A stretch of DNA of 64,000 bases, taken from positions 32,001 to 96,000 of the IMG/VR virus record IMGVR_UViG_3300020112_001004. One strand, given 5' to 3'. Source of the DNA: a virus. Lineage: Duplodnaviria > Caudoviricetes. Of the stretch, positions 1,924-63,154 are shown piece after piece. Made by a program: the position numbers and the translations under genes. Below the pieces are notes generated by a model that had not been told where the DNA came from, made no database searches, and worked only from the letters and a program-made list of their open reading frames with translations. Each line of letters begins with the position of its first letter. Positions within the stretch are counted from its first letter, which is position 1.

Positions 1924-2031
1924 TATGAAGAAGATAGTTAATAAAATAAAAGAGATAGTTAAAACAATAGGTGAGATATACAAAAATAAAAGAAATAATA
2001 TTTAGGAGGTTAATACCTCCAGTACATAGTG

Positions 2032-2069
2032 GCAACAAGTTAGATAATTATGATAATAATATAATATAA
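2032..2069 (+). promoter_or_regulatory. Copy of bipartite motif GTAAC-N19-ATAATATAATATAA (putative phage early/middle promoter)
   Basis: Same spacing at 2032 (GCAAC variant), 5910, 8738, 10821, 13071, 14017, 18478, 20012, 22093, 22848, 25223, degenerate at 329; always upstream of an RBS. Confidence 0.7.
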
Positions 2070-2148
2070 GGAGGAGCAATCCCCCTAGTACATATTGAAC
2101 CATATGTCTACCCAAAGGTAGTTAAATAATAATTAGGAGTGTTATTAA

Positions 2149-2604
2149 ATGGAATTAGAAGAGATAAACAAGATAAAATTGGTAAAAAAAATAATAAAAT
2201 CTTCAAGGATAATAGAAGAAGAATTTGGTGGGGGTTATCTTTATAAAAATGATTTAATCAAACTAGGTGCTTTTGTGTCATATTTAATGGCAGACACCTA
2301 TAGTGGACTACTAAACTTATATATCAAAAATGATATAAAACAAATAAAAAGAATATATTTTGACGCAAGGACAATGTCGGATTTACTTGATTATACTGAC
2401 AGAACGACGAGGATATTTCTTAGGTCAAATTTAATAACCGGTATGGAATTTATATTCTTCTCAAAATGGGATGACATTATAACAAAGATGATAGAGTTTA
2501 CGAAGAAGAAAATTGAAGATAAAAATATAGGAGAAAAGGACATTTACTTTATAGAACTATTAAAACGTGAATGTGCACTGCATGGTTATGAAATAGATTT
2601 TTAA
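2149..2604 (+). CDS. Hypothetical protein, divergent member of the paralog family (lacks the terminal motif)
   Basis: DLIKLGAFVSY and TGMEFIF match the two internal family motifs. Confidence 0.7.
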   Translation: MELEEINKIKLVKKIIKSSRIIEEEFGGGYLYKNDLIKLGAFVSYLMADTYSGLLNLYIKNDIKQIKRIYFDARTMSDLLDYTDRTTRIFLRSNLITGMEFIFFSKWDDIITKMIEFTKKKIEDKNIGEKDIYFIELLKRECALHGYEIDF

Positions 2605-2626
2605 CTAATTTAAAAGGGGCGATATT

Positions 2627-3559
2627 ACGGGTAAAAGAATAAAATGGACTATAGAAAAGATTAAAGAAAAATGTGAAGAGCAAGGAGCAGAATGTTTAGA
2701 GGAGGAATATGTAAATAATGCCACTAAAATGAAATTTAAATGTGGGTGTGGGAATGAATATGTGGCAAGATGGAATGATGTTGTTGGTAAAAATCAATGG
2801 CAGTGTTCAGAATGTAGTGGCAATGCAAAATGGACTATAGAAAAGATTAAAGAAAAATGTAGAGAACATGACGTTGAGTGTTTGGAAGATAAATATGTAG
2901 ATAATAAAACCAAAATGAGATTTAAATGTAAATGTGGGAATGAGTATGAAGCAAAATGGAATAGTGTTATTGGTAGAAACCAATGGCAATGTCCAAAATG
3001 TAGTGGTAGAGCAAAATGGACTATAGGAGAGATTAAAAGAATATGTAAAGAACATGGAGTAGAATGTTTAGAAAAAGAATATGCAAATGCTAGAACTAAA
3101 ATGAGATTTAAATGTAAATGTGGAAACGAATATGTGACAAGTTGGGATAAAGTTACTAGACAAAATCAATGGCAGTGTTCAGAGTGTAATGGCAAAACCA
3201 GTAAAGGTGAAACAATAACCCGTGAATTTTTATCAAAGTTACTAAAAGATGAAAACCTATTTGAAGAACAAAAGACATTTGAAGATTTAGTCGATGAAAA
3301 ATTATTATCTTATGATTTCTTTATTCCAGAATTCAATATCTTAATTGAGATACAGGGTGTCCAACATTATAAACCAATAGAAATGTTTGGGGGAGAAAAA
3401 CAATTTAAAAAACAACAACACCATGATAAATTAAAAAGAGAATACGCAGAGCAAAATGAACTTATACTAATTGAGATACCTTGGAATTGTAATGGGATAG
3501 ATACCGAGGAAAAATTAATTGAAGAATTAAAAAATAAATTAAGTGGGCTTATTAAATAA
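2627..3559 (+). CDS. Free-standing putative homing endonuclease: CxC...CxxC zinc-ribbon repeats + Vsr/PD-(D/E)XK-like nuclease domain
   Basis: Three repeats KWTIE..C..C...Y....KM.FKC.CG..W....WQC..C; C-terminal YDFFIP..LIEIQGVQHY..D.LK; frame open upstream of ATG 2729 to ACG 2627, 7 nt after AAAAGGGG. Confidence 0.8.
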   Translation, partial: TGKRIKWTIEKIKEKCEEQGAECLEEEYVNNATKMKFKCGCGNEYVARWNDVVGKNQWQCSECSGNAKWTIEKIKEKCREHDVECLEDKYVDNKTKMRFKCKCGNEYEAKWNSVIGRNQWQCPKCSGRAKWTIGEIKRICKEHGVECLEKEYANARTKMRFKCKCGNEYVTSWDKVTRQNQWQCSECNGKTSKGETITREFLSKLLKDENLFEEQKTFEDLVDEKLLSYDFFIPEFNILIEIQGVQHYKPIEMFGGEKQFKKQQHHDKLKREYAEQNELILIEIPWNCNGIDTEEKLIEELKNKLSGLIK

Positions 3560-3641
3560 GGAGGTTTATGCCTCCAGTACATATTGAACTATATGTCTAC
3601 CATTAGGTAGTTAATAAATAATAATTAGGAGTGTGTTATTA

Positions 3642-5888
3642 ATGGGATATGAAGACAGAAAGTATACAGGGAAGAGTGCCACTTTGAAGGTGAATTTTTG
3701 TAGAAAACTTTATAATAATGGCAACTATTATGTAGCAAGTTTTTTTATTTTGGAGCTCCAACATGGGGAACTCTCTCTGCCATATGGCGAAGAAAATCTA
3801 GTAGCTAATGGGAAAATTACCTGCGATTTAGACAAGGATTATGAGTACATTCTAACAGTAAAAGAATATGAAGACCCAAAATATTCAACAAGTCACGAGA
3901 TTTGTAGTATAGTTCCAATAATTAAAGTAGATTCACTAGATGAACAGATTATCTTTTTAAGAAAAATACTAACCCAGACACAATTTAGTAATTACTATGA
4001 TGTATTTGGAGGTAGCGAGGATTTACTTAAACCCCTAAAAAAAGGCGATACGAAATCATTATTAAAGATAAAAGGAATAGGTCTGAATACAGTAGATAAA
4101 CTATTAAATAAATATGAGAATAATATAGCAAATGCTAATATTATTATTAAAATTGCTAAATATGGGCTAAGTGACTCAGAAATTTGTCTGATGATTAAAA
4201 GTGGATTCAATGAGACCGAAATAGTAAAAACAATGGAGCGTAATCCATATGAATTCATCTCAAAAGTTAAAGGGTTGGGGTTCAAAAAGATAGATGCTAT
4301 AGCCTTAAAAAATGGAATAAAAGAAGAAGATTTAAGGAGAATCAAAGGATTCATAACCTATGCGATAAATAAAAGAGTAGAGAATGGTAGTACTAAAATT
4401 GGTTTAGACGAACTCGAGCAAGAGTTGGATAATGAATTTGGTGTGGATTTTAATATTGATTTAGCTATTGAAGCTTTAAAAGATATGGAACAAAATGAGG
4501 ACTTATGGGTTAGTGCTGATAGAAGCGACATCACTACAACAGCTATTAGAGAAAGTGAAAGATATGTTGCTAAAAGATTAATTGATATTATGAGAGACGA
4601 AACTAAATTAGATTATGATTTGGGAAAGATAAAAGTAGCAGAGAAGAGTCAAGGCTTTGAATATTCAGAAGAACAAAGAGGGGCTATTAAACAGCTACTA
4701 GAGAACAAAATAAGCGTATTAACAGCCCTAGGGGGTTCTGGTAAAACAGCCGTAGTAAGAGGAGCGTTAGCTTGTCTTAAAGAAGGCTATGATATAAGGC
4801 TTATGGCTTTATCGGGAAAAGCTTCGTCAGTATTAGCAAATGCTTCTGGATTAGAAGCTAGTACAATTCACAAGTTTTTAATTGATAAAGTAAGAGAAAA
4901 TATTGTACCAGACGTTGTAGTTATAGATGAATGCTCGATGCCAGATATAGGTCTTACTTACAAGTTGTTACAACTCCTACCTAACACTGTGAAAATAATA
5001 TTTATTGGTGACCCAAACCAACTACCAGCAATAGGTGCCGGAAATCTATTGTTTGATATGTTAGAGAGTGGTGTTATTCCAACGATTAGATTAACAAGAA
5101 TTTATAGACAAGGATTAAGGTCTGGCATAGTGACAGAATCTAGAAAGATAACAGAAGATAAAAATATATTGGAAGACGGGTATGGCGTAACTGTAAAAGG
5201 TGAAGATAAGGATTTTATAATGGATATTTATAAAGAAAAAGAAGATAGTTTGGATAAGGTTATGGACTACTATAAGAAATTATTAAAAAAATATAAACCT
5301 AAAGATATAGTAGTGTTATCTTGTGTAAAAACAAGAGGCGAGGCTTGTACCTATAATATAAATAATAAAATCCAAGAGATATTGTTTAAACCAAATGAGA
5401 GACATATAGTTGTGGGCAAGAAGGATAGAGAGTTTAAAATTCATGTAAAAGATATAGTTATCAATGGGAAAAATAATCCTAAATGTGTTTGTGACGAAGG
5501 AACAGTTGGTATTTATAATGGAGAGGTTGGGACGGTAATTTCCATAGACGAAACAGAAAAGACTATTTGTGTTAATTTTGGTAAGGGAAGAGAATGTGTT
5601 TATATAAATCAAGAACAAATGGCTCATATAGAACTAGGGTATTCTTACACAATACATCGTAGCCAAGGAATAACAATCCCTGCTACCATAATGGTTTTAG
5701 ATAATACTATGATAATGATGGCGAATAAAAATTTAATATATACTGGTATAACTAGAGCAAAAGATATTTGTTATTTAGTAGGACAAAAAACAACATTGCA
5801 AAAAGGGTTAAGAACAAGTGGAATTGCAAAAAGAAAAACTTTCTTGAAAGAGTTTTTAGAGGAATACGGAACTAAATTAGAGGGTTAA
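3642..5888 (+). CDS. recD2: RecD2-like SF1B helicase
   Basis: Walker A ALGGSGKT, STIHK, VIDECSM, GDPNQLPAIGAG, IYRQ, TIHRSQG, YTGITRAK; N-terminal HhH (IKGIG). Confidence 0.9.
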   Translation: MGYEDRKYTGKSATLKVNFCRKLYNNGNYYVASFFILELQHGELSLPYGEENLVANGKITCDLDKDYEYILTVKEYEDPKYSTSHEICSIVPIIKVDSLDEQIIFLRKILTQTQFSNYYDVFGGSEDLLKPLKKGDTKSLLKIKGIGLNTVDKLLNKYENNIANANIIIKIAKYGLSDSEICLMIKSGFNETEIVKTMERNPYEFISKVKGLGFKKIDAIALKNGIKEEDLRRIKGFITYAINKRVENGSTKIGLDELEQELDNEFGVDFNIDLAIEALKDMEQNEDLWVSADRSDITTTAIRESERYVAKRLIDIMRDETKLDYDLGKIKVAEKSQGFEYSEEQRGAIKQLLENKISVLTALGGSGKTAVVRGALACLKEGYDIRLMALSGKASSVLANASGLEASTIHKFLIDKVRENIVPDVVVIDECSMPDIGLTYKLLQLLPNTVKIIFIGDPNQLPAIGAGNLLFDMLESGVIPTIRLTRIYRQGLRSGIVTESRKITEDKNILEDGYGVTVKGEDKDFIMDIYKEKEDSLDKVMDYYKKLLKKYKPKDIVVLSCVKTRGEACTYNINNKIQEILFKPNERHIVVGKKDREFKIHVKDIVINGKNNPKCVCDEGTVGIYNGEVGTVISIDETEKTICVNFGKGRECVYINQEQMAHIELGYSYTIHRSQGITIPATIMVLDNTMIMMANKNLIYTGITRAKDICYLVGQKTTLQKGLRTSGIAKRKTFLKEFLEEYGTKLEG

Positions 5889-5974
5889 TATCCCTCTTCT
5901 ACATAAACGGTAACGTTTTTGAGTATAATGACCATAATATAATATAAATAAAATAATTAATTGGGAGTGTAGGT

Positions 5975-6487
5975 ATGAATAATAATTTTGATAAAAAAGT
6001 AGTTGAAGTATTAGAAAAAGATATGGAAGGGTTTAAAAAACTAAACAGTCGTAGTGGGGTTCTTAATTATCCATTGTTTAATATATATAATTTATTTGAA
6101 TTGGGGACTTTATTATCATATGGGTTTAGCGCTATTTATCTTGAAGAATGTGAAACTGGTGGTTTTGAAACTTTAAAAGGTATTGACACTACGACTATAA
6201 CAGGAGAAGGCGATGGTAGAGGTTCTGTGTATACTCTTTTTGGTCAGCATAACATAGGGATGGGTCAAGGTTTGAGTTTAAAAAATTTTGAAGAGGCGTA
6301 TAGAATGATGACTATAGGGGTTGATTTTTTATTAAATTATGACTGTTTAACCGAGCCCTTGGTTGAACAAGTGCTTGAGACATCTTTGAACAAGTGGTAT
6401 GCAGATATGGTCAAGAATGAGTTAATTAAGAGATTCAAAAAAGATGTGAATAAATACGGAGATTATTTGCTAGAATTTATGCTATAG
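5975..6487 (+). CDS. Hypothetical protein, paralog family (C-terminal YGDYLLEFML)
   Basis: RBS; LFELGTLLSY, IGVDFLL and terminal motif. Confidence 0.8.
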   Translation: MNNNFDKKVVEVLEKDMEGFKKLNSRSGVLNYPLFNIYNLFELGTLLSYGFSAIYLEECETGGFETLKGIDTTTITGEGDGRGSVYTLFGQHNIGMGQGLSLKNFEEAYRMMTIGVDFLLNYDCLTEPLVEQVLETSLNKWYADMVKNELIKRFKKDVNKYGDYLLEFML

Positions 6488-6488
6488 C

Positions 6489-6553
6489 TGGGGTTAGACC
6501 CCAAGTACATATTTAATATGTACCCACTCTTAGAGGGGTTAATTTAAAAGGAG
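6489..6553 (+). repeat. Stem-loop/TACATA/stem-loop leader element (triple-hairpin subfamily)
   Basis: TGGGGT-TAG-ACCCCA ag TACATATTTAATATGTA CCCACTCTTAGAGGGG TTAATTTAAAAGGAG; the part from TACATA onward is near-identical in the copies at 9447, 11875, 14769. Confidence 0.85.
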
Positions 6554-6564
6554 AGATTATAGAT

Positions 6565-8694
6565 ATGGGACTTAAAGTTGTAAAGAGAGACGGAATACTA
6601 GTAGATTTTGACGCAAACAAGATTGTTGAGGCAATATCAAAAGCTTGTAGAGAGGTTGGAGAAGAGGAGGAATTACTTAAACAGATTTCAAGACATATAA
6701 GTAGGGAAATTGAAAAAATAGCTGAACAAAAAAGAAAAGCAATAAAAATAGAAGAGATACAAGATTTAGTAGTAAAAATGTTAAAAGACACTGGATTTAA
6801 TAAAGTTAGTAAAGTCTATCAAGAGTACAGAGAAAGAAGGACGGCGATTAGAGAGGCAAATAGCAATTTACTAAAGAGTGTTAGGGGTGTAATAGATGGT
6901 AGTAACGATGACGTATTAAAAGAAAATGCTAATAAAAATGGTTACGTGTCTAGTATACAAAGAGATTTGGTAGCCGGTGAAATATCAAGAGCTATAGCTA
7001 AAACAATGATACCCGAGGATATAATACAAGCCCATTATGAAGGGCTTATAAAAATCCATGATTTAGATTACTATATGTCACCAATTCATAATTGTGGATT
7101 AATAAATTTACAAAGTATGTATACTAACGGAACTGTTATAAATGGCGTAAAAATAGAAACGCCAAAAAGTTTAAGGACAGCAATGAATCTTGCTACCCAA
7201 ATAGTGTGTCAAGTCGCTAGTCAACAATATGGTGGTAACACTATAAGCTTGGGACATATGGCGCCTTTTGTAAGAGTAAGTAAGAATAAACTAATAAAAA
7301 AATATAACAAATACCACTTAGACCAAGACACAAGAGATAGATTAGTCAACGAAGAATTAAAAGGGGAAATTAAAGATAGCGTACAACTGTTTAATTACCA
7401 ACTTTTAACTCTTAATAGCACCAATGGTCAAAGCCCATTTACAACTCTTGTAATAGATATAAACGAGGACGTTGAGTACACAGAAGAGATAGTAATGTTA
7501 GCAGAGGAATTCTTAAAACAAAGAATACAAGGAATGCCTAATGACAAGGGCGTATTTATAACTCAAACATTCCCTAAGATAATATATATGTTGGATGAGA
7601 ATAATATATATGAAAATTCTAAATATTATTGGCTAACCAGACTATGTGCAGAGTGTACTGTTAAAAGAATGGTTCCAGACTATATGTCTGTTAAAATGTT
7701 GATGAAGCACGTTGGGGCTAAAATTCCTACGATGGGATGCAGAAGTGAACTAACACCTTTATGGGACGAGGAAGGAAACCTTTTAAGTTGGGGAAGAGGG
7801 AACGTAGGAGTAACCACTATTAATTTACCATACGTGGCTTTATTGAGTAAAGAAGAAAACAGAGATTTCTTTGAAGTGTTAGATGAGAAATTGGAGCTAT
7901 GCAAAAAAATGGGTTGCTTAAGATTTGACAAACTAAAAGGGGTAAAAGCAAGTATAAGCCCTATATTGTGGCAACATGGTGCATATTTAAGACTTCAACC
8001 AGACGAAGAGATTTTACCACATTTAAAGAAATTATTTACAGTATCTTTGGGCTATAGTGGACTATATGACTGCGTAAAAGTTTTAACAGGTGAGAGTCAT
8101 ACCGACGGTATTGGTAAAGCCCTAGGATTAACAATAATGGAACACCTAGATGATAAATGTAAACAATGGAAAGAAGAAACAGGGTATTTATTCGGAGTCT
8201 ATGGCACTCCTATGGAGTCTAGTACGGACTGGTTCTGTAAAGCTATCAAAAGGAGATTTGGAGAGGTCAAGGACGTAACAGATAAAGGATATATAGTTAA
8301 TAGCTACCATATAGACCCTAGAGAGGAGATAGACGCTTTCACTAAGTTAAGTGTCGAGGCTGAGTTCCAAAAACACAGTTTAGGTGGTTCAATATCTTAC
8401 GTAGAAACACCAGATATGACTAAAAATATTGAAGCTGTTTTAGATATAATGAGGCACATTTACGAAAACAACATCTATGGAGAGTTAAATATAGAATGTG
8501 ATTATTGTGCAGAATGTGGAAGTTTTATGGTGGCAAACCTAGACGAAAACCAACATTGGAGCTGTGGGAATTGTGGATGTGATGACTATGACAAACTAAA
8601 TATAATAAGAAGATGTTGTGGTTATATTGCAGATATGAAACACGCCAACGAGGGTAGACTAAACGACGTAAAGGCTAGAGTAAAGCATATTTAA
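6565..8694 (+). CDS. nrdD: Anaerobic (class III) ribonucleoside-triphosphate reductase with ATP cone
   Basis: VVKRDG ATP cone, IHDLDY, MGCR, C-terminal CxxC pairs and RRCCGY glycyl-radical motif. Confidence 0.95.
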   Translation: MGLKVVKRDGILVDFDANKIVEAISKACREVGEEEELLKQISRHISREIEKIAEQKRKAIKIEEIQDLVVKMLKDTGFNKVSKVYQEYRERRTAIREANSNLLKSVRGVIDGSNDDVLKENANKNGYVSSIQRDLVAGEISRAIAKTMIPEDIIQAHYEGLIKIHDLDYYMSPIHNCGLINLQSMYTNGTVINGVKIETPKSLRTAMNLATQIVCQVASQQYGGNTISLGHMAPFVRVSKNKLIKKYNKYHLDQDTRDRLVNEELKGEIKDSVQLFNYQLLTLNSTNGQSPFTTLVIDINEDVEYTEEIVMLAEEFLKQRIQGMPNDKGVFITQTFPKIIYMLDENNIYENSKYYWLTRLCAECTVKRMVPDYMSVKMLMKHVGAKIPTMGCRSELTPLWDEEGNLLSWGRGNVGVTTINLPYVALLSKEENRDFFEVLDEKLELCKKMGCLRFDKLKGVKASISPILWQHGAYLRLQPDEEILPHLKKLFTVSLGYSGLYDCVKVLTGESHTDGIGKALGLTIMEHLDDKCKQWKEETGYLFGVYGTPMESSTDWFCKAIKRRFGEVKDVTDKGYIVNSYHIDPREEIDAFTKLSVEAEFQKHSLGGSISYVETPDMTKNIEAVLDIMRHIYENNIYGELNIECDYCAECGSFMVANLDENQHWSCGNCGCDDYDKLNIIRRCCGYIADMKHANEGRLNDVKARVKHI

Positions 8695-8928
8695 ATATAA
8701 GGAGGATTAAATCCTCCACTACATAGTTACCTTTTAGGTAACAAATTAAAACAGCTTGTCTATAATATAAAGAAAATAATTTAAAAGGAGATTTATTATG
8801 GAAGTAAAACAAATAATCTGTTCTAAGGACTCTCATATAGCTAAACAAAAACAAAACAACCCAGACCACAAGTTTTCAAAAGAAATAAAAATAAAAAATA
8901 ATTAAACAATCTAAAAGGAGTGTTGTTA

Positions 8929-9447
8929 ATGAGAGTATCAAATATCCAATGGGTGGAGGCTACTAACTATTTAAATGTGGGTTGCACTATATTCTTTCAA
9001 GGTTGCTCATTATCCCCAAAATGTGAGAATTGTCACAATTATGAAATATGGAATCATAATGGTGGTCATGTGTTTACAGAAGAAGAACAGGATAAAGTTA
9101 TAGGGCATTGCAAAAAGCCTTTTATAAAAAGGCTTGTACTTTGTGGGGGTAATCCAAGTGACCAACTACATTCAGAATTAATAGCGTTTATAAAAAGATT
9201 TAAAAAAGAGGTTAACAAACCAGTAATAATCTTTGACGGATATACCTATGAGGAACTTCAAACAATGCCAGAGAGATTCGCAATAATAAGCGAGTGCGAT
9301 ATATTAATAGACGGTAGATTTGTTCAAGCATTATACGACCCTCGTGCTAGGTTCTTTGGTAGTCGAAACCAGAGAATAATAAACGTGCAAAAATCTCTAC
9401 GAGAAGAGAGAGTTGTTCTAGAAGATAATTTCCCTTGGTATATTTAG
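8929..9447 (+). CDS. nrdG: Anaerobic RNR activating radical-SAM protein
   Basis: FFQGC..C..CHN, GGNP, DILIDGRF, GSRNQR; next to nrdD. Confidence 0.9.
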   Translation: MRVSNIQWVEATNYLNVGCTIFFQGCSLSPKCENCHNYEIWNHNGGHVFTEEEQDKVIGHCKKPFIKRLVLCGGNPSDQLHSELIAFIKRFKKEVNKPVIIFDGYTYEELQTMPERFAIISECDILIDGRFVQALYDPRARFFGSRNQRIINVQKSLREERVVLEDNFPWYI

Positions 9448-9519
9448 GAGGATTAATTCCTCCAATACATATTTAATATGTACCCACTCTTTCGAGGGGT
9501 TAATTTAAGGAGTGTTTTT

Positions 9520-10815
9520 ATGGTAAATTATTTTAAAATTGTAGAAATTGTAGAGGGCTTAAGAAATACTACAAAGTCAACGGAGAAATTAGCTATACTA
9601 AAAGCCAATAAAGATAATGGGATATTACAAAAAGTATTAGAATATACTTACAACCCTTATAAAAAATATAAAATAACAGAAGATACTTTTAGTAAATATA
9701 ACAGCTTCAACTGTGATTTTGAAGATATATTTGATTTATTAAATCTACTTGCTAAAAGTAATATAACCGACTATTTAAAAAATGAGGCAGTTGGGTTTGT
9801 AAATCTAGCAGACCCACGATTAAGAGATTTATTTAAGTCTATGTTGGTCAAGGACTTAAGGATTGGTTGTAATGCTAAAACAATAAACAAGGTGTGGGAA
9901 GGACTTATACCAGAGTTTGGTTGTATGTTAGCAGAGAGTATATTTAAGAATGACAATATCAAAAAAATAGAAGGAAAAGAATTTAGTATCACCACCAAAC
10001 TGGACGGCTTTAGAATCCTATGCTTTAAAGAAAATGGTGAAACAGTTTTTTACACAAGACAGGGGCAAGAGTATATAGGGCTAGTTGAAATAAAAGAAGA
10101 TTTAAAAGATATACCAGATAATATAGTTATAGATGGAGAACTATTGTTAAAGGATATACCAGAGGATATGGAGAGTGGAGATGTATATAAAGCCACTTCT
10201 AAAATAGCTCGTAAAAAAGGTGAGAAGAGAGGGCTTTGTTTAAATGCCTTCGATATTATAGATAAAGAGGGCTTTTTCAAAGGTAAAGATTGTACTCCAC
10301 ACAAAGTGAGAAGAGAGAAATTACACGAGTTCATAGAAAATAACAATTTCAAATTCTTAAAGGAAGTTAAAGAGTTGTACAGAGGCAAGGATATTGATAA
10401 AATTTATGAACTATTAGATGAAGCCAGAGAGAACGGAGAAGAAGGGATAATGGTATCTTTATCTAGTGGTGTATATGAAACCAAGAGAAGTAAACAACTA
10501 TTGAAAGTTAAGATTATGCAGACTATGGACGTAAGAGTGCTTGAAGTTTATGAGGGAGAAGGAAACTTTAAGGGTATGCTTGGTGGCGTGATATTTGAAT
10601 TTGAACATGAAGGCGCTATCCATGATTGTAATTGTGGGAGTGGATTTTCCCAAGAAGATAGAATTAGATTCTGGAACAATAGGGACGAAATATTAGATAG
10701 AATAATAGAGCTACAATATTTTGAAGTAACTCAAAACAAAGACGGTGGATATGGATTAAGATTCCCCGTATTTAAAGGTATAAGAGATGATAAGACAGAA
10801 CCAAGTTATCACTAA
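9520..10815 (+). CDS. ATP-dependent DNA ligase
   Basis: KLDGFR adenylation motif, DGEL, FDI, EGIMV, LLKVK, CGSGF, LRFPVF. Confidence 0.95.
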   Translation: MVNYFKIVEIVEGLRNTTKSTEKLAILKANKDNGILQKVLEYTYNPYKKYKITEDTFSKYNSFNCDFEDIFDLLNLLAKSNITDYLKNEAVGFVNLADPRLRDLFKSMLVKDLRIGCNAKTINKVWEGLIPEFGCMLAESIFKNDNIKKIEGKEFSITTKLDGFRILCFKENGETVFYTRQGQEYIGLVEIKEDLKDIPDNIVIDGELLLKDIPEDMESGDVYKATSKIARKKGEKRGLCLNAFDIIDKEGFFKGKDCTPHKVRREKLHEFIENNNFKFLKEVKELYRGKDIDKIYELLDEARENGEEGIMVSLSSGVYETKRSKQLLKVKIMQTMDVRVLEVYEGEGNFKGMLGGVIFEFEHEGAIHDCNCGSGFSQEDRIRFWNNRDEILDRIIELQYFEVTQNKDGGYGLRFPVFKGIRDDKTEPSYH

Positions 10816-10883
10816 AAAAAGTAACAAATTAAAATAACTTGTCTATAATATAATATAAAATAAATTACAAAGTGGGTGAATAA

Positions 10884-11540
10884 ATGGACATAGTGGTTAA
10901 AGAAATAGAGAAAAAGTTAACTTATGATTTTATATTAAATAAGCACTATGCAAAGAGGAAACCTAGTATAAGTTGGGCGTATGGATTATATATAGATAAT
11001 AATTTAGAAGGTGTATTAACCATAGGTAAACCAGCATCTAATTCACTATGTAAAGGTATATGTGGAGAAAAATATAGTAAACAGGTGTTTGAATTAAACA
11101 GGTTATGTGTTAACGAAGGATTGGAAAAAAATATATTAAGTCGATTTGTATCAAAAGTATTGAAGGATTTAAAGAAGCACAATCTAATAATAGTATCATA
11201 TGCAGATGAGGGTATGCACCATCATGGTTATATATATCAAGCTACAAATTTTATTTACACAGGAGCGACTCTTGGGAGGACAGACAAATATGTACCACGA
11301 GGTAAACACAGTAGGCACTATGATAAAGGAGACGAGTTTAGTCATCTAAGGGTTGTAAGAAGCGTGAAGCACAGATATGTATATATATGTGGAGACAAGA
11401 AATTCAAAAAAGAAATAATGCAGTGCATGAATTATAAGGAAAAACCTTATCCAAAAGGAAATAATGAAAGATATGTTTTAGGGGAAGAGCAAAAAAGATT
11501 AATATATAATAAAAAGACCCACGAGTATTATTATGATTAA
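10884..11540 (+). CDS. Mom-like DNA adenine modification enzyme (GNAT fold)
   Basis: HY, GKPAS, ELNRL, SYAD..HHGYIYQATNFIYTG motifs characteristic of the Mom family. Confidence 0.8.
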   Translation: MDIVVKEIEKKLTYDFILNKHYAKRKPSISWAYGLYIDNNLEGVLTIGKPASNSLCKGICGEKYSKQVFELNRLCVNEGLEKNILSRFVSKVLKDLKKHNLIIVSYADEGMHHHGYIYQATNFIYTGATLGRTDKYVPRGKHSRHYDKGDEFSHLRVVRSVKHRYVYICGDKKFKKEIMQCMNYKEKPYPKGNNERYVLGEEQKRLIYNKKTHEYYYD

Positions 11541-11559
11541 AAAATAAATTAAAAGGAGA

Positions 11560-11811: not shown

Positions 11812-11948
11812 TATGCTTAAGTTTTCAATTTGTGTTTTAATCTGGGTGTGGATATATAAAGAGTTGACAGAAAAGGAGGATTAAATCCTCCAATACATAT
11901 TTAATATGTACCCACTCTTTAGAGGGGTTAATTTAAAGGAGATAATAT

Positions 11949-12563: not shown

Positions 12564-12574
12564 GGGGTGGTTAA

Positions 12575-13316: not shown

Positions 13317-13517
13317 AATAAACCCAAGAGGGTGTATTCACCTTCTTGGTAACAGGAGGTGAATATCATCATAAAAGCAATACTATTAATAGTAACAGTT
13401 GTAATACTAGATGGTTTAACTATGAAACTGGTGCTACTTTTATACGAGTGGCTTAGAAAAATGGGGAAATAAATTAATTCCCCATACATAGAAATAATTT
13501 AAAAGGAGTTTTTTGAT

Positions 13518-14767: not shown

Positions 14768-14841
14768 TGGGAGGTTTCCTCCCGATACATATTTATTATG
14801 TACCCACTCTTAGAGGGGTTAATTTAAAAGGGGAATGTGAT

Positions 14842-16311: not shown

Positions 16312-16392
16312 AAAGATTGATAGAACAGGAGGGTTTTCCTCCTATTACATAACTCACTAAGGTGGGTAATAATATATTAAGGAGTGTTGTAA

Positions 16393-22104: not shown

Positions 22105-22195
22105 AACGAGCTGATAATAATATAATATAAGGAGGAGTAATCCCCCTAGTACATACTTGCCTAAAGGTGGGTAAATAATTTAAGGGAGATTAATA

Positions 22196-22828: not shown

Positions 22829-22946
22829 TAGCCTACGGTGTCGATAGGTAACAATTTAAAATAAGTTGATAATAATATAATATAAGGAGGAGCAATCCTC
22901 CAGTACATATCTGCTTTTAGCAGATAATAATTCAAGGAGTGATTAT

Positions 22947-41995: not shown

Positions 41996-42032
41996 TCGGG
42001 CAAGATATGTAAAGTAGGGGTTTTATCCCCTA

Positions 42033-45000
42033 CTATTTTTTCTTCCCTAACCTTCTTAATTCTCTTGATTGTTTTTGCATTAATTTATCTATTGCTTTAT
42101 CTACATCAATTTCTTTCCTTATGTCTGCGTCCACGTTGTTGTTAATTGTTATTTTTGGTTCACTAGCTACTGGTTTTTGTGGATTTGGTACACTATTGAA
42201 CCTACTAGCTATTCCATTTATTACATTGTTTAATAAGGCATCAAAACTAGACATGTACTGACTATTCATGTTCTTATTGTCTAAAGCGGTTACATCAACG
42301 CCTCCATTAAAATCACTTAAAGACATAAATCCTTCTCCTAAAGGTTGTACCTCTGGCACTGAAGAAGGTGTATCTGTATCTACTCCAGTAGAATATTGAT
42401 TAGTCATTTGTTGCATTGTTTCTAAATGGTTTTTATAATCTTCTTCTCTTTGTTTGTAAATATCTTTAAGTTTTTTCGTATCTTCCTCTGCAACGGTAAG
42501 GTCTATATTGTTGGTTAGAATAGATTGTTGCTCTATTTCATTAACGGATTCAAGGCTACCACCCTTGATTGTGTTTACAACATTACTTACGACATTCTTT
42601 ACGGTGTTTATAGTATTGTTAACAAAGTTGGTTGTTACGGTAATCGTTTTACTAACAAGTCTACCTATTGCACTTCTTAGGTTTTCAACCATACCAGAAG
42701 CGCCTTGTGCTGCTCCCCCAACATTGTTAAAGTTAGACACAGAAGCTCCACCATTATAGTTAGGTACATTTTGTAAAACACCACCATAATTTTTAACTCT
42801 GCCTCCATTTGAATCGGCTGCTCCTCCAACATTATTAAACTGTCCTACAGAAGCTCCACCATTATAGTTAGGTGTATTTTGTAAAGTACCACCATAATTT
42901 TGAACCTTGCCTCCATTGGTATCGGCTGCATTACCAACATTATTTAACTGACTTTGAGATTGTGAACCATCATAGTTAGGAGTGCTTTGAAGGGTACTTC
43001 CATAATTTTGAACCTTGCCTCCATTGGTGTCGGCTGCGTTACCAACGTTGTCCATTTGACCTTGAGATTGTGAGCCATCATAATCTGGCACCCCTTCTAT
43101 TTTGTTTCCAAATTCGTCAACTTTAGGTGTGGCGTTACCAGCCGAGGTTCCCACATTATCCATTTGACTAGAAGTTTGAGAACCATCATAATCTGGTACC
43201 CCTTCTATTTTCTTACCAGTCTCATCTACTCTTTGTCCAGCTTCTTCTGAACTAGTTGCAACATTGTTAAAACCTTGTTCTGTAGGTGCGCCGTTATAAT
43301 CCGGTACGCCTTCTATTTTTTTACCAGCGTCTTCTACTTTTTGTCCACTTTGTTCAGCACTATCTCCAACCCCGTTGAATCCATTCATTATAGATTGAAC
43401 TACGTCTGCTGGTAATCCAAGACTATCCAGTTTAGCTTGAAGTTCGTCTTTAGAAACGCCACATTTAATAAATTCGTCGATAACTTGATTAATTTCATCA
43501 GTCATACCACTAGCAAAGTCTGGATTCGCTTTTAATTCGTTTAATTTATTTTGGAACTCTTCAGTGCTAATTTTACCCTCACCATAGGCTTGGATAAGTT
43601 GAGTCATTTGTGTTTTTGCAGACTCGGACAAGTTACTATTCATTACTAAACTGTTTAATTTATTTTGAAGTTCTTGAGTAGAAGTGTCACAGCTTTTCAT
43701 AGAATCATTAATTTGAGCCATTTCTAGGGCTATCTCTGGAGCAAGATTAGGGTTCATTTTAATAGCCATCAAAGCATCGTTTAAAACTTTAGCACTTGCC
43801 TCACCATTAACAAAAGCTTGTACCATATTTGATATTGACTCAGCAGATAGCGTACCTAATTGACTTATCGCCTCGTTGGATAATCCCATAGAATGTCCCA
43901 TAGACTCTCCAAATTGTTGGGCAGTTATCTCACCTTTTGCAAATTGTTGTATTGCTTTTGTCATAGTTTGTTGGACACCCTTGTCCAATGTGGTGAAACT
44001 TGCACTAGTTGTCATTTCCATCATTTTCATACCCATAGCGAACTCTTGTGCTGTTACATTACCTTGGGCGAACTGTTGAACTAGGGAATCTAAAGCTTTT
44101 TGGGAGTCTTTGGATAAGACATTGTAAAATGATTCCATATCATTCTCGACAAGTTTAACACCTTCGGCAAAATCTTTAGCTCCAACGTCTCCTCTTTGGA
44201 AACCTTCTAAAATAGCAGTCATGGCAGTTTGAGTGCTTTCTTTTAACTTACCCATGTTTTGGGCTGAGAAACTAGACATTGCAGAAACTGCTTCGCCATA
44301 GTCCTTTATGTTAACACTACCATCGGAATATCCTTTGTTTAATTTTTCTAGGCAACCACCGGCTGTTTGCTCTAACGAACCAAAGTCTAGTTTACTTACC
44401 TCGCAAAAGTCTTGGATAGCTCTTTTTCCTTCGTCGATATTTATTGCTCCACGCTCGAAGTCGTCAATCATCTTATTTATTGCTTTACTAGAAGCCTCTG
44501 GAATTTCGCCTAGTGCTTCAACTTCTTCTCTTAAAGCTTTTGCAGTTTTACCTCTATATATTTCTAGACCTTCATATCCTTTAATAACGTGGTCTGCACT
44601 ATCTCCAACTTCATAGTTAGCTTCGGCTAGTTGCTTTAATAGGTCGTATTCCTTCTGCTCTGAGACTGATAGTTTTTCATTATTATCCAACTTGGCTTGA
44701 TATGCTTGTAGAGATTGCTCTAAGTATGTCTTTTCATCTTCTGCGCTTTTCTTTACTGTTTCTTTTGTTTTTTCAAGTTCTTCTCTTAACTCTTTAGCAG
44801 ATTTAGTTTTTGCGTGGCTACCTTCACCATAAGCAACTTTTTCGTCATCTTCTAGTTGATAAAGTTGGTGTAAGGCACTATCTATATCTTTAATTTCTCC
44901 ATTATATTCAGACAGTTCTTTTGAAGCTTCATTAACATTCTTTTTGTTATCAGCAAAGAATTTATCTGCTTCTTTGGCTGCTAACCTTTTGTTATTTTGT

Positions 45001-51002: not shown

Positions 51003-51034
51003 TATGTATAAAAGGAGAGATTGCTCTCCTTTTC

Positions 51035-59974: not shown

Positions 59975-59991
59975 GGTTTCACCCCTTTTTC

Positions 59992-62979
59992 TTATATTCT
60001 AGAATTTCTAGTTGGAGCTCTAAATTGTAATAATTTAGATATATCTTTCTTTTTGTCTGGTTTGTTTCTAATTTGTCCTTGGCGTACATTTGCCAAGTAA
60101 AAACAAAGTAAAGCTAGTACAAAACAACGGTCATCGTGGTACTTACGTTTCTCTGGTGGATATTGGTAAGTATGACCTGTATTTGTTGGATTATCTACCC
60201 TTTGCATCATATAAGCTTCCTCTTTAGCTAAATCAATATTTTTTAATGCTAGTGCTTCTTCAAAAGCAAGGGTATGTTTATGGTAAACGACTTCTCCATC
60301 TTTCTCTTCTGGTATCATGATATAGTCTTTGGTTTCATCAAATTCACTAGTGAACTCAACTAATCCTAAATTTATCATTTCGATTGCTTTATCAAACATT
60401 TCTGTCCTATATTTTCTAGGGTCTACCACCCATAGTTTTTCTGATGCGTTCGGGAATCTATGAAGATATTCCTCACTATATTGAGGGTCTATTATTCCCT
60501 TATGTTTAATTCCGTTGGCGTCTTCCCAATCTTCCATAAAGTAATCTGGTATAATAGTTCCTCCACCACCTGCTCCAGCATCTACCATAAGAATTTCCAA
60601 ATTTTCATAGTCTGCATAACCTTCACCGTTGTAGTCTAGTATCATTTTTTTAATATATGCTGTTTGCTCTGGTGAACGCATTGGTGTTTTATTCTTCAAT
60701 CCTATATCTACTAAAGACACAAAGTTTTGTATTCTTAGTTTTGTGCCTAACACTTCGTCTTCTATTAATTCTGCTACTCCAACAATAGAGTTATCGTTTG
60801 TTCTAGCTGGGTCATATGCCATGATTATTCTTCTTTTCTCGTTGCCCTCATTGATTAACATTGGTGGTCTAATTGCGCTATTACGCATTATTACTGAACG
60901 CTTAAAAGGGTAATCATTACCACCTTCTGTAGTAAACTTGTTATAGTATTCTCGTCTCGCCTTTTCTGGGTTGGCTTTCATTGCATGGTCAACCTTATCT
61001 TGAGTAAGTAATGGCACTGCTAAATTTTTACCATGATTGGTCGCCCCTATAACCATATCACATGATATATCTGCGACAAAATAACTAGGGTTTCCCATTA
61101 GCATCTCTTTAGCACAGTTCTTATACATACTGAAAAAATGTGTATCGGTCGAAGAGGCTGAAGAACAATACAATATTTGGTTAGGTAACATTTTTGGAAT
61201 AGTTCCGTTGTCTATACCTTTACCCATTTTAAAACTGGCATTTTGAGTGCAAAACGCTTCAGTAACAAGGCAATATTCCTCGCTTAAAAACCCAGCCTCG
61301 TCGTAAACGTTTAGTTGAGAACGCTTCAATTTGTTATCTCACTAGCTTTTTATCTAGTGATTCTTATGATTGTATTTCTCATAAGTTCGGCATATCTTTT
61401 CACCTTTGGCATTATCCATTAAGGGACGGGGACTCGTGGGCGTGTTATATTCTATTAAATAGTTTCAACGCCTATGCTCTGCACGTGTTACTAATATTAC
61501 TTAATAACTTCCGTTCTGATTAGCATTTCAGCTTTCCAGATTTTTCCCCGTTTTAATTTAACTATACATTTCTGTATAGAGAGGCAATACGTTCTTCTAA
61601 ATTATATTCTTTATAGTAAAATAATTTTTTTTCATGTTTCCTGTCTAAATAAACTGAAGAATCTTTATAAATATATTCTAAAAACTCATGTGTGTTTTTT
61701 AATCCACCTATTCTTAGTCTATAATGATTTTTTTCTTGACATATATAAGATTTTATTCCTGCTTCGTACAAGATTTTTCTCAGTTGACCAACAAAATCTA
61801 TACTACCACAAGCAAAGTCAGCTTTTATGACATCTTGTGTGCAATTTTTAGACCTAGTTTTATCATGCGTTAAACATCCATCTCCATCAAAAAATCCTCT
61901 TATAAAATGTCTCATTAACTCTTTCGGAATGTTTGGTAAATCTATCACTTTAGATTTGTTTGGCATCACCCCTTGGTTTACTAGGTGTTCTACAAACTGC
62001 TTTTTATGAATTTTTAAACAACACGTTTCATAGTCTTTATTTGTTACTTCTAAATGTCTTACTCTTCTTGTAGTATTAAAATTCCCATGTATAGATTTAT
62101 TAAATTTTTTAAGATGATTTTCATCAACTGCTGATAGTTCGATGCCTAGAGTTCCACCTTTGCCAACCGAATATTCAACATATCCATCAGCATAAATAAA
62201 TCCTAGCCAATAAGCTTTCTCTTCATTGTTTATATTTTCAAAATAATCTAAATCACAGGTATATTTAGTGCTTTTAAGTCCAAGCTTGTTCGCCTTAGTA
62301 TCTATTGCACTTTTTGTCCTTCCAATTAATTCCCCTAATTGTTTATTTGTCATTTCACCATAATATTTTTTTAATATATTTATTTCTTCTTCAGTCCATT
62401 GTGTACGCATTAAAAATTTCCTCCTTTTGATTTAATCTAATTAATACGATATTTTTTAAAATAATCTTTACCTCTTAAATTCGTCTCGTCTCCGGAGCAA
62501 GTGGTAACACTACTACCATTAAACAATTTGAACGTAAACCCACTTGGGGCATGAATAAAACCATTCCCGTTTACTGATGGTTGTACCTGTTGAATCATAA
62601 AATCAGTCAAACCCACCATTGACTCTATTTGCCTTAAAGCCATCTTTTCCATCTTCAAAAATGTATCTTGTGATTGTTGTGCTGTAACAGAAAGAATATA
62701 AGAAGTAAAATTAGGGAACAGTAACATTTTAGTAAATGTAAAAGGTGCGATATAGAACGACTTACCCCCGTTTCTCGACATCGTTATACAACTAAATTGT
62801 TTATTCCAACTTTCAGCAAAACAATATCTTTGATAATCAAGGAATTCTATCCCTATTACTTCTTCGGCAAAAAGAACTGGGTTCTTTCTTCCCCACTGTA
62901 TTAAATTGCCATATTTATCGTAAGCTTCTTTTTTCTTTTGCGATAATTCTAAATCTGTTTTTCTAACATAAAAGTCCAT
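59992..62979 (-). CDS. terL: Terminase large subunit, two exons (62979-62470, 61326-59992), 614 aa
   Basis: SRNGGKS Walker A in exon 1; junction NLRG|KRSQLNVYDEAG restores Walker B context; YDPAR and HDDR nuclease motifs. Confidence 0.92.
61327..62469 (-). mobile_element. Group I intron in terL (1143 nt) with LAGLIDADG ORF in the P1 loop
   Basis: Exon AGAGGU pairs with GCCUCU near the ORF end; P7 GCAUA/UAUGC; terminal G. Confidence 0.9.
61562..62410 (-). CDS. LAGLIDADG homing endonuclease with N-terminal HTH
   Basis: AYWLGFIYADG and FIRGFFDGDG motifs; WTEEE..L..GRT N-domain. Confidence 0.9.
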   Translation of the reverse strand: MRTQWTEEEINILKKYYGEMTNKQLGELIGRTKSAIDTKANKLGLKSTKYTCDLDYFENINNEEKAYWLGFIYADGYVEYSVGKGGTLGIELSAVDENHLKKFNKSIHGNFNTTRRVRHLEVTNKDYETCCLKIHKKQFVEHLVNQGVMPNKSKVIDLPNIPKELMRHFIRGFFDGDGCLTHDKTRSKNCTQDVIKADFACGSIDFVGQLRKILYEAGIKSYICQEKNHYRLRIGGLKNTHEFLEYIYKDSSVYLDRKHEKKLFYYKEYNLEERIASLYRNV

Positions 62980-63154
62980 AGATACTAACCATCCCCTTCC
63001 TGTGCATAAATTTATATAAAATTTTTATATACGCAAAAAAATCGTGATATAATCACGATTACTATATGTATTGGGGATTGCTCCCCTCAAAAAAATCAAG
63101 AATGGTACAGGTACCCTCTTGATAAAAACATAGTGTTTTTGTTCACCTTTACTA

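What the first reader, a model, noticed from the sequence alone, without database searches (positions are those of the whole stretch)
2005..63086. Genome-wide intergenic element: GC stem-loop + 1-2 nt + invariant TACATA, usually followed by a second stem-loop
Seen: TACATA lies just 3' of a 5-8 bp hairpin whose sequence varies while pairing is kept (GGAGG/CCTCC, GGGG/CCCC, AGAGGG/CCCTCT, GGAGAG/CTCTCC; several GNRA loops). Plus-strand TACATA positions: 2023, 2089, 3578, 5900, 6506, 8720, 9466, 11894, 13485, 14786, 16346, 22150, 22904. Minus-strand copies: 42006-42011, 51003-51008, 63065-63070. All are in the sense orientation at gene junctions, ahead of recD2, nrdD, ligase, thyX-like, both topoisomerase subunits, terL and Dit. 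The first hairpin generally has no U-tract, so it is not an ordinary terminator. Inference: a structure-plus-sequence signal I cannot assign to a known family. Candidates are an RNA processing site that leaves both products hairpin-protected, a nut-like antitermination site (the 51003 and 63065 copies sit just before terminator-like hairpins), or a hairpin promoter for a phage RNA polymerase.
Basis: partly seen in the sequence, partly recalled or inferred. Interest (0 to 1): 0.82.

Follow-up and report, generated by a model that had tools for sequence, protein, structure and literature searches.

The report
Hairpin-guarded MazF cut sites between phage genes
Between the genes of this 112-kb gut phage, a stable RNA hairpin is repeatedly followed by UACAUA, the exact cut site of MazF-type RNA-cutting toxins (the phage carries two). 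These junctions therefore most likely mark where its long messages are cut into hairpin-protected pieces, not where transcription starts or stops.

Summary
All are intergenic, and each lies 0-2 nt after a strong hairpin. The whole 112,402-bp phage record has 37 copies.

The raw TACATA count is ordinary (61 vs 62.5 in shuffles). The signal lies in strand and place:
- Sense-strand copies inside genes: 1-2 observed vs about 35 expected (z about -7). The antisense count is normal.
- Co-oriented intergenic DNA: 35 observed vs 7.8 expected.
- TACATA is the commonest hexamer after hairpins.
- There are 25 distinct stem sequences, and all pair.

UACAUA is the published strict cut site of Bacillota MazF/EndoA. 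The phage encodes two PemK/MazF proteins whose closest solved relative is B. subtilis EndoA.

Best reading (0.65): programmed endonucleolytic processing sites. Hairpin 1 caps the upstream product; a second hairpin often caps the downstream product.

Promoter, terminator and nut-like readings fit poorly:
- A separate GTAACA-17-TATAAT promoter exists, and 8 copies lie directly upstream of the element.
- There is no T-tract after hairpin 1.
- The SPbeta YonO promoter region has no TACATA.

The same design occurs in unrelated Bacillota phages (Maenad, TR-TP1, CB473P3, phiEF24C). phiEF24C has no mazF, so a host MazF may also do the cutting. No RNA ends were mapped.

This scan has noted the same design before on other DNA. 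I found no paper describing it.

The parts
2005..2028 (+). Element copy: hairpin GGAGGT/ACCTCC (loop TAAT) + AG + TACATA. It lies after the FolD-like gene and is followed by a promoter and the next copy.
2069..2094 (+). Element copy directly after a GTAACA-17-TATAAT-type promoter. Hairpin GGAGGA/TCCCCC has one A.C mismatch, then AG + TACATA. ACATAT/ATATGT and CTACC/GGTAG hairpins follow.
3560..3583 (+). Element copy starting right after the stop codon of ORF 2729-3559, ahead of RecD2 (3633-5888).
5879..5905 (+). Element copy. Hairpin AGAGGG/CCCTCT overlaps the RecD2 stop codon, then TC + TACATA. A short hairpin and a promoter follow.
6489..6538 (+). Element copy ahead of NrdD: hairpin TGGGGT/ACCCCA + AG + TACATA. 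The hexamer pairs with TATGTA (6517-6522), and a CCCACTC/GAGGGG hairpin follows.
8701..8725 (+). Element copy after NrdD: hairpin GGAGGAT/ATCCTCC + AC + TACATA. A GTTACC/GGTAAC hairpin and a GTAACA-17-TATAAT promoter (8738-8766) follow.
9447..9499 (+). Element copy between NrdG and the DNA ligase, with the same downstream double-hairpin module as at 6506.
11875..11927 (+). Element copy with the downstream double-hairpin module, ahead of ORF 11949-12563.
13462..13490 (+). Element copy: hairpin TGGGGAA/TTCCCCA abuts TACATA (gap 0). There is no second hairpin, and the RBS follows 15 nt later.
14768..14818 (+). Element copy: hairpin TGGGAGG/CCTCCCG (terminal U.G pair) + A + TACATA, plus the downstream double-hairpin module.
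16327..16351 (+). Element copy ahead of the GyrB-like topoisomerase subunit (16393-18378).
22130..22155 (+). Element copy directly after a promoter. The hairpin has an A.C mismatch. It lies ahead of ORF 22196-22828.
22886..22909 (+). Element copy directly after a promoter: hairpin GGAGGA-GCAA-TCCTCC + AG + TACATA + TCTGC/GCAGA hairpin. It lies ahead of the GyrA-like subunit (22947-25166).
42006..42034 (-). Element copy in the late region: hairpin AGTAGGGG/CCCCTACT + T + TACATA. It lies between the 1231-aa ORF and a tail-fibre-like gene (40073-41995). There is no second hairpin.
51003..51032 (-). Element copy: hairpin (A)AAGGAGAG/CTCTCCTT(T) + TA + TACATA. A true terminator-like hairpin with a T8 run follows on the sense strand.
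63065..63086 (-). Element copy: hairpin GGGGA-GCAA-TCCCC + AA + TACATA. A terminator-like hairpin with a T7 run follows.

Best explanation
The element acts in the RNA. UACAUA is a cut site for a MazF-family endoribonuclease, which cuts U^ACAUA and leaves a 2',3'-cyclic phosphate and a 5'-OH. The enzyme could be one or both of the phage's own antitoxin-less MazF proteins, the host's MazF, or both.

The phage has removed the hexamer from its coding mRNA. It keeps it only at gene junctions, always 0-3 nt after a stable hairpin.

Cleavage would therefore split the polycistronic (or promoter-proximal) transcripts at defined points:
- The upstream piece ends in hairpin 1 plus a 1-4 nt tail. That tail is too short for 3' exonucleases to load on.
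- The downstream piece starts 5'-OH-ACAUA. In about half the copies this is the first arm of a second hairpin, which would shield it from 5' exonuclease (RNase J1-type) attack.

Shown here: the anatomy, the strand-specific purge, covariation of the stem, the MazF genes, and recurrence of the design in other phages.

Inferred: that cleavage happens, which MazF does it, and that the hairpins stabilise the products.
For: 1. The hexamer matches the strict 6-nt site U^ACAUA shown for B. subtilis, Listeria and S. aureus MazF.
2. Genome 10110-10478 and 11976-12326 encode PF02452 proteins (E 3e-16 and 1e-16). Their best solved relative is B. subtilis EndoA 4MDX, and in MazF-2 the aligned Arg25 and Thr48 positions are kept.
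3. The selection is strand-specific, which points to RNA. Sense TACATA in CDS is 1-2 vs 34.6 +/- 5; antisense is 64 vs 58.8. It is the most depleted non-palindromic hexamer.
4. The sites are positively retained. There are 35 sense copies in 11 kb of intergenic DNA vs 7.8 expected, and 33 are hairpin-adjacent. The hexamer is invariant across 25 different stems.
5. The geometry is tight. The gap between stem and hexamer is 0-3 nt. The predicted downstream product has 0 unpaired 5' nt in 17 of 37 copies and 5 or fewer in 27 of 37.
6. The design recurs in unrelated Bacillota phages: Maenad (7 by the strict hairpin rule, rank 1), TR-TP1, CB473P3/PMBT24 and phiEF24C. It is absent from T4, SPO1, LP65, K, A511 and SPbeta.
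7. Five of 13 phage mazF genes carry UACAUA in their own leader, where fewer than 1 is expected. This fits these enzymes reading that hexamer.
8. Promoters are accounted for by a different conserved motif.
Against: - No RNA ends or cleavage data exist for this uncultured phage.
- The specificity of its two MazFs (about 30% identical to EndoA) is unknown. In MazF-1 the residue aligned with EndoA Glu20 appears to be substituted.
- Neither of this phage's mazF genes has the hexamer in its own leader.
- MazF needs single-stranded RNA, but in about 20 copies the hexamer is the 5' arm of a second hairpin. The median predicted chance that it is fully unpaired is 0.02, with an opening cost of 0-3.6 kcal/mol.
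- The link to phage-borne MazF is only suggestive (Mann-Whitney p = 0.06). phiEF24C has the element without any MazF gene.
- In B. subtilis reporters, a UACAUA in a 5' UTR lowers expression. A benefit from cleavage therefore rests on the inferred protective role of the hairpins.
Confidence: 0.65

Rival explanations
1. Tolerated rather than used sites. A host MazF acting as a defence purges UACAUA from the genes. The intergenic copies are only harmless, hairpin-buffered leftovers with no function for the phage.
For: Virulent Bacillota phages without MazF (SPO1, LP65, K, A511, phiEF24C) show the same purge from coding mRNA. Host pressure alone therefore explains the depletion.
Against: Neutral leftovers would sit near the shuffle expectation (7.8) and show no link to hairpins. 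Instead 35 are observed, 33 directly after a hairpin with a 0-3 nt gap, and the hexamer never varies across 25 different stems. SPO1, LP65 and A511 have no intergenic excess.
Confidence: 0.13
2. Promoter for the phage's YonO-like single-subunit RNA polymerase (genome 5554-8523). The hairpin and TACATA would be the recognition element, as with the N4 hairpin promoters.
For: The phage does encode a YonO-like polymerase. The YonO promoter sequence is unknown. The element is sense-oriented upstream of genes. Two copies have A.C mismatches that would be G.T pairs in the template strand.
Against: - SPbeta YonO starts from one site ahead of the late operon, and the mapped region has no TACATA.
- Here 28 of 37 copies lie in the plus-strand replication and nucleotide-metabolism gene region and only 3 in the structural-gene block.
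- One copy precedes the polymerase gene itself.
- 8 copies sit directly downstream of a sigma-A-type promoter.
- Maenad and phiEF24C have the element but gave no YonO match.
- A promoter that needs the hairpin would not explain the purge of the bare hexamer from sense coding sequence.
Confidence: 0.06
3. Transcription punctuation: a hairpin plus TACATA acts as a pause, termination or antitermination (nut-like) signal for the host or phage polymerase.
For: The hairpin lies at gene ends, often touching the stop codon. A sequence-specific pause or stop signal would also be purged from the sense strand of genes. Two late copies precede true terminators.
Against: - There is no T-tract, and no copy is called terminator-like on the sense strand.
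- A terminator placed right after a promoter (8 copies) makes little sense.
- The order (hairpin, then linear motif) and the variable loops do not match boxA-boxB.
- The hexamer match to MazF would then be a coincidence, and so would the same purge in phages with other transcription systems.
Confidence: 0.06
4. DNA-level site: the TACATA...TATGTA inverted repeats are operators for a dimeric DNA-binding protein such as the MrpR-like repressor.
For: Four window copies form a perfect 17-bp palindrome, TACATAT-TTA-ATATGTA. The phage has an MrpR-like gene.
Against: Only a subset has the inverted partner. The spacing between half-sites varies widely across copies, which suits an RNA hairpin but not a protein dimer. 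A DNA site would not be purged from one strand only.
Confidence: 0.03

Closest known systems
MazF/EndoA (NdoA) cleavage of U^ACAUA in Bacillota mRNAs (Park 2011; Simanshu 2013; PMC11780869; bioRxiv 10.64898/2026.08.06.743204)
   Same: Identical hexamer on the RNA sense strand. A MazF-family protein is encoded in the same genome. The site is selected against in RNAs that must stay intact; published work reports the same for 16S rRNA.
   Different: Known chromosomal sites are scattered inside genes and destabilise the message. Here the sites are removed from genes and placed at junctions behind hairpins. The phage mazF genes have no recognised antitoxin next to them.
RNase III processing sites between phage T7 early genes
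   Same: Intergenic RNA signals cut a polycistronic phage transcript into units that end in a stabilising 3' hairpin. Here there are dozens of copies per genome, all in the sense orientation.
   Different: T7 sites are long imperfect duplexes cut within the stem by a double-strand-specific host enzyme. Here a short hairpin flanks a single-stranded 6-nt site for a sequence-specific toxin-type RNase.
Host MazF control of SPbeta and phi3T (arbitrium phages: AimX, YosL, SroA/B; PMC10769878)
   Same: This phage also has SPbeta hallmarks (MrpR-like repressor domain, YonO-like polymerase). Its biology appears tied to a UACAUA-specific MazF.
   Different: SPbeta carries no mazF, has no hairpin-TACATA elements, and is enriched in sense UACAUA inside genes (114 vs 57). 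It is a target or sensor of MazF, not a phage with placed sites.
T4 PeSL cassettes (promoter-early stem-loop repeats)
   Same: Short repeated intergenic cassettes combine promoter, stem-loop and ribosome-binding site, and are partly near-identical between junctions. This suggests spread by recombination.
   Different: PeSLs have no invariant nuclease site. This comparison is from memory and was not tested here.
ToxIN type III toxin-antitoxin (ToxI RNA repeats processed by ToxN)
   Same: A Kid/MazF-like RNase without a protein antitoxin cuts a repeated structured RNA at a fixed short motif.
   Different: ToxI is a tandem array next to the toxin gene, and its products inhibit the toxin. Here the copies are dispersed in mRNA leaders, and nothing shows inhibition.

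Membership tests
MazF/EndoA U^ACAUA cleavage site | Exact UACAUA hexamer on the transcribed (sense) strand | tested here: met
   16 of 16 window copies and 37 genome copies are sense-oriented and invariant.
MazF/EndoA U^ACAUA cleavage site | A MazF-family endoribonuclease is available with its catalytic Arg and Thr | tested here: met
   Two PF02452 proteins are encoded at genome 10110-10478 and 11976-12326. The best PDB hit is EndoA 4MDX. The RP and (T/S)xQ/K motifs align for MazF-2; for MazF-1 they were placed by eye. The host MazF is unknown.
MazF/EndoA U^ACAUA cleavage site | The site is single-stranded in the RNA | tested here: inconclusive
   The opening cost is 0-3.6 kcal/mol and the median P(unpaired) is 0.02. 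The site is open in 6-8 copies and lies in a weak AU-rich stem in about 20.
MazF/EndoA U^ACAUA cleavage site | The cognate enzyme's specificity is UACAUA | not testable with these tools
   About 30% identity to EndoA. The Glu20 equivalent is unclear in MazF-1. Indirect support: 5 of 13 phage mazF genes in other phages carry the hexamer in their own leader.
MazF/EndoA U^ACAUA cleavage site | RNA ends (5'-OH and 2',3'-cyclic phosphate) at U^A | not testable with these tools
   This needs end-mapping during infection or in vitro cleavage.
Intrinsic (rho-independent) terminator | GC-rich hairpin followed within 0-2 nt by a T-tract on the sense strand | tested here: not met
   No hairpin-1 copy in window 1-20000 is called on the sense strand. 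The true terminators (for example 18406) are distinct.
Sigma-70/sigma-A promoter | -35 and -10 hexamers with 16-18 nt spacing; T at position 6 of the -10 | tested here: not met
   TACATA ends in A, and a hairpin occupies the -35 position. The real promoter motif, GTAACA-17-TATAAT, lies elsewhere.
Phage RNA polymerase promoter (N4 hairpin type or YonO) | The motif lies at the transcription start sites used by the phage polymerase, ahead of the gene class it transcribes | tested here: not met
   The SPbeta P_YonO region lacks TACATA. Copies lie mostly in the replication and nucleotide-metabolism gene region, one precedes the polymerase gene itself, and the element occurs in phages that gave no YonO match. 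No N4-type polymerase was found among the ORFs examined.
Lambda-type nut site | boxA linear motif followed by a boxB hairpin with a conserved loop, few copies per genome | tested here: not met
   The order is reversed, the loops vary (GCAA, TTAAT, TAA, TTT and others), and there are 37 copies.
RNase III processing site (T7 type) | Extended duplex of roughly 20 bp or more, cut within the stem | tested here: not met
   The stems are 5-9 bp. The element works like these sites but is not one of them.
Any Rfam family | Match at the gathering threshold | tested here: not met
   0 matches in the 64-kb window.

The most novel reading that the evidence does not exclude
A toxin-derived RNase has been domesticated as a dedicated phage mRNA-maturation enzyme. 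Antitoxin-less phage MazF (or a hijacked host MazF) would cut hairpin-guarded UACAUA 'punctuation marks' placed at gene junctions and transcript heads. This would give every message a hairpin 3' end and a 5'-OH-ACAUA head. The strategy would be shared by several unrelated lineages of Bacillota phages and would run alongside a general purge of UACAUA from the genes of virulent Bacillota phages.
Probability: 0.45. Interest if true: 0.85.

Novelty: new variant of a known kind. Interest (0 to 1): 0.72.

Why it matters
MazF is usually studied as a growth-arresting toxin, a phage defence, or (in SPbeta-type phages) a host factor that steers lysogeny. If this reading is right, phages also use the same strict 6-nt RNase constructively, much as T7 uses RNase III. 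They strip the site from their genes and place hairpin-insulated copies where a cut is useful.

That would give three things:
- A simple sequence rule for predicting phage transcript architecture in Bacillota.
- A reason for the many 'orphan' mazF genes annotated in phage genomes.
- A compact, portable RNA-processing cassette (hairpin + UACAUA + hairpin) that can be tested directly in B. subtilis.

The survey also suggests that MazF is a broad selective force on virulent Bacillota phages. I did not find that reported.

Tried and rejected
- The 5-mer TACAT is not excluded from sense coding sequence (46 sense copies in the window). Only the 6-mer is, which matches the revised 6-nt MazF specificity.
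- G.U versus A.C pairs in hairpin 1 do not settle RNA versus template-DNA folding. I read about 2 internal wobble pairs and 2 A.C copies.
- An ungapped MAFFT alignment of 12 copies (A1) puts the 5' arms out of register because loop lengths differ. I did not build a covariance model and measured covariation with my own script instead.
- Searches for close relatives failed. Megablast against phages gave no match. A pattern scan of IMG/VR gave single chance hits plus one phiEF24C-like contig. YonO-based and NrdD-based scans of genome contigs gave no close kin and no host.
- No sigma-factor domain was found in the record.
- Rfam gave nothing.
- A literature search found no paper on hairpin-TACATA elements or on programmed MazF sites in phages.
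- The association with phage-borne mazF in 20 phages is only suggestive (p = 0.06). I do not claim it.


Full report
**What is there**

The window is bases 32001-96000 of a 112,402-bp IMG/VR virus record. The record has 31.6% G+C and is estimated 76% complete. Genes run on the plus strand up to about genome 57.4 kb and on the minus strand after that.

TACATA is not over-represented overall: 61 copies on both strands against 62.5 +/- 8.4 in shuffles. Its placement is extreme. All are intergenic, and each sits 0-2 nt after a hairpin of -6.9 to -13.3 kcal/mol. There are 0 sense copies in the 59 window genes, against 35 antisense copies.

The whole record has 37 sense copies. 35 have the hairpin. 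The exceptions are genome 12547, inside a 425-aa ORF, and genome 97455.

**Is it more than chance?**

- Synonymous-codon shuffles of about 120 genes predict 34.6 +/- 5 sense copies inside genes. 1-2 are observed (z about -6.5 to -7). The reverse complement is at expectation, 64 vs 58.8.
- TACATA is the most depleted hexamer apart from AAAAAA, GATC-containing words and CAATTG.
- Co-oriented intergenic DNA holds 35 sense copies vs 7.8 in dinucleotide shuffles. Intergenic vs CDS gives p = 8e-35.
- Of 43 strong perfect hairpins on the sense strand, 28 are followed by TACATA. It is the top hexamer after hairpins, with 31 cases.
- The stems have 25 different sequences, and all are complementary. Only 11% of mismatched arm pairings are complementary.
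- The hexamer never varies.

**Surroundings**

A second, separate repeat is a sigma-A-type promoter, GTAACA-17-TATAAT, with about 35 sense copies. The elements occur in four settings:

| Setting | Copies |
|---|---|
| Promoter, then element, then ribosome-binding site | 8 by script |
| Element between co-transcribed genes | about 20 |
| Element, then promoter | 4-5 |
| Element, then a true terminator | window 51003 and 63065 |

Hairpin 1 often touches or overlaps the upstream stop codon. No copy has a sense-strand T-tract.

In about 20 copies TACAT(A) is the 5' arm of a second hairpin, closed by a downstream (T)ATGT(A), with loops of varying length. A third hairpin and the ribosome-binding site often follow.

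Pfam confirms these genes downstream of elements: RecD2, NrdD, NrdG, an ATP-dependent ligase, and GyrB-like and GyrA-like subunits. The names thyX-like, terL and Dit were not supported.

**What the hexamer is**

U^ACAUA is the strict 6-nt site of B. subtilis EndoA/MazF, mapped transcriptome-wide and lost in an ndoA deletion (PMC11780869). Listeria and S. aureus MazF share it in reporter assays (bioRxiv 10.64898/2026.08.06.743204).

The phage encodes two PemK/MazF proteins about 20 kb upstream of the window, at genome 10110-10478 and 11976-12326. EndoA (4MDX) is their best solved relative. The catalytic Arg-Pro and Thr positions are kept.

The record also has an MrpR-like repressor domain and a YonO-like polymerase, so it is a distant SPbeta-type phage. 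SPbeta phages are known to interact with host MazF.

**Mechanism proposed**

The strand-specific purge shows selection at the RNA level against the bare hexamer. The excess at junctions, with a fixed 0-3 nt gap after a covarying hairpin, shows selection for it there.

A cut at U^A would leave the upstream RNA ending in hairpin 1 plus a 1-4 nt tail. From general knowledge of PNPase and RNase R, which need longer single-stranded tails, that end should resist 3' exonucleases. This step is inferred.

The downstream RNA would start 5'-OH-ACAUA. In its predicted fold the first nucleotide is already paired in 17 of 37 copies, and 5 or fewer nucleotides are free in 27 of 37. That is the layout known to block 5' exonucleolytic decay in Bacillota, again an inference.

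One caveat: the hexamer itself is often in that weak second stem. The opening cost is 0-3.6 kcal/mol and the median chance of being open is 0.02. Cleavage may therefore be slow or conditional.

**Rivals**

*Promoter for the YonO-like polymerase.*
- SPbeta YonO fires from one start ahead of the late operon. The region between the published primer-extension primers has no TACATA.
- Here the copies concentrate in the replication and nucleotide-metabolism gene region. One precedes the polymerase gene, and 8 follow a host-type promoter.
- No sigma factor domain was found.

*Terminator.* There is no T-tract.

*nut-like site.* The order is wrong, the loops vary, and there are too many copies.

*DNA operator.* The half-site spacing varies, and the purge affects one strand only.

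*Harmless leftovers of a host-MazF purge.* This does not explain a 4.5-fold intergenic excess tied to hairpins.

**Comparison with other phages**

I ran the same pipeline on 19 other phages. Counts are observed/expected; "Hairpin-adjacent" uses the relaxed fold criterion.

| Phage | Own mazF? | Sense TACATA in CDS | Hairpin-adjacent intergenic copies |
|---|---|---|---|
| SPO1 | no | 10/38.6 | 0 |
| LP65 | no | 1/30.3 | 1 |
| Staphylococcus phage K | no | 11/54 | 2 |
| A511 | no | 4/46.5 | 1 |
| phiEF24C | no | 16/44.6 | 7 |
| T4 | no | 23/33 | 0 |
| SPbeta (temperate) | no | 114/56.6 | 1 |
| Perkons | yes | 94/66.5 | 2 |
| Maenad | yes | 2/10.3 | 9 |
| TR-TP1 | yes | 14/24.1 | 4 |
| CB473P3 | yes | 7/28.2 | 5 |
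| Semele | yes | 6/36.9 | 9 |
| Lactobacillus phage 3-521 | yes | 8/38.9 | 9 |

- Virulent Bacillota phages purge sense UACAUA from their genes whether or not they carry mazF. T4 shows only a weak deficit, and temperate SPbeta and Perkons are enriched.
- The hairpin + 0-3 nt + TACATA junction design recurs in Lactiplantibacillus phage Maenad. There 7 copies meet the stricter perfect-stem rule (rank 1), and the phage has mazF but gave no YonO match.
- It also recurs in Thomasclavelia TR-TP1, in Enterocloster CB473P3 and PMBT24, and overlapping promoters in Semele and 3-521.
- It recurs in E. faecalis phage phiEF24C, where it is conserved in an IMG/VR relative. phiEF24C has no MazF by profile or protein search.
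- The enzyme can therefore be the host's. The association with phage-borne mazF is only suggestive (p = 0.06).
- Five of 13 phage mazF genes carry the hexamer in their own leader, p about 7e-4. This hints at self-regulation and at UACAUA specificity of phage MazFs. This phage's own two genes do not have it.

**Novelty**

The cut site and the enzyme family are known. I found no paper describing placed, hairpin-guarded sites used as phage transcript punctuation. Earlier notes of this scan describe the same design in this genome and in several others. They agree with what I tested, but they are not independent evidence.

**Verdict**

- The promoter and nut candidates are not supported.
- Confidence in the MazF-site reading is 0.65.
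- The role of the hairpins, and which MazF does the cutting, remain inferences.

Noticed in passing
whole record; single copy at window 53632: GATC occurs once in 112,402 bp, where about 327 are expected from base composition. CAATTG occurs twice. This is strong restriction-site avoidance.
   Followed up: partly
window 355, 2058, 5936, 10847, 13097, 14043, 18504, 22119, 22874, 25249 (starts of AATATAATATA): A conserved sigma-A-type promoter, GGTAACAAAT...GATAATAATATAATATAA (-35 GTAACA, 17 nt, -10 TATAAT), has about 35 sense copies in the record and none in the structural-gene block.
   Followed up: partly
outside the window: genome 5554-8523 (L001:5554-8523): A 989-aa YonO-like single-subunit RNA polymerase. 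Its relatives are in Clostridium phage c-st, Enterocloster and Thomasclavelia phages, and SPbeta. Its gene is preceded by a promoter plus an element copy (genome 5493).
   Followed up: partly
outside the window: genome 12547 (L001:12351-13628): This is the only clear in-gene sense TACATA. It lies in the 425-aa ORF between mazF-2 and the MrpR-like repressor gene, so it may be a regulatory target.
   Followed up: no
other phages: SPO1, LP65, K, A511, phiEF24C, T4, SPbeta, Perkons (loci L083-L202): Sense-strand UACAUA is purged from the genes of virulent Bacillota phages that lack mazF (z -5.4 to -7.4). T4 shows only a weak deficit (z -2.1), and temperate SPbeta (114 vs 57) and Perkons are enriched.
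   Followed up: yes
Enterococcus phage phiEF24C 18283, 96352, 96936, 98208, 99444, 104382, 139228; L052: A well-known lytic phage without any MazF gene carries GGGAGG/CCTCCC hairpin + TT + TACATA junction elements. They are conserved in an IMG/VR relative.
   Followed up: partly
Lactobacillus phage 3-521, 133299-137552 and 23933: Six paralogous genes, and the phage's own mazF, have TACATA between the Shine-Dalgarno sequence and the start codon (AGGAGGT-TACATA-TnATG). A cut there would separate the ribosome-binding site from the gene.
   Followed up: no
Psychrobacillus phage Perkons, Lactobacillus phage Semele, Maenad 13991 and 76532: TACATA lies 1-6 nt after a -10 box, at the predicted 5' end of primary transcripts. 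Perkons has 42 intergenic sense copies against 6 antisense, and no hairpins.
   Followed up: partly
outside the window: genome 100152 region (L003): A decayed copy: promoter + GGAAGCC/GACTTCC hairpin + GT + TAATACA in place of TACATA.
   Followed up: no
window 6506-6560, 9466-9520, 11894-11945, 14786-14840: Near-identical 50-nt modules downstream of TACATA (TTTAATATGTACCCACTCTTAGAGGGGTTAATTTAAAAGGAG) are shared by unrelated junctions. This suggests spread of the cassette by recombination.
   Followed up: no
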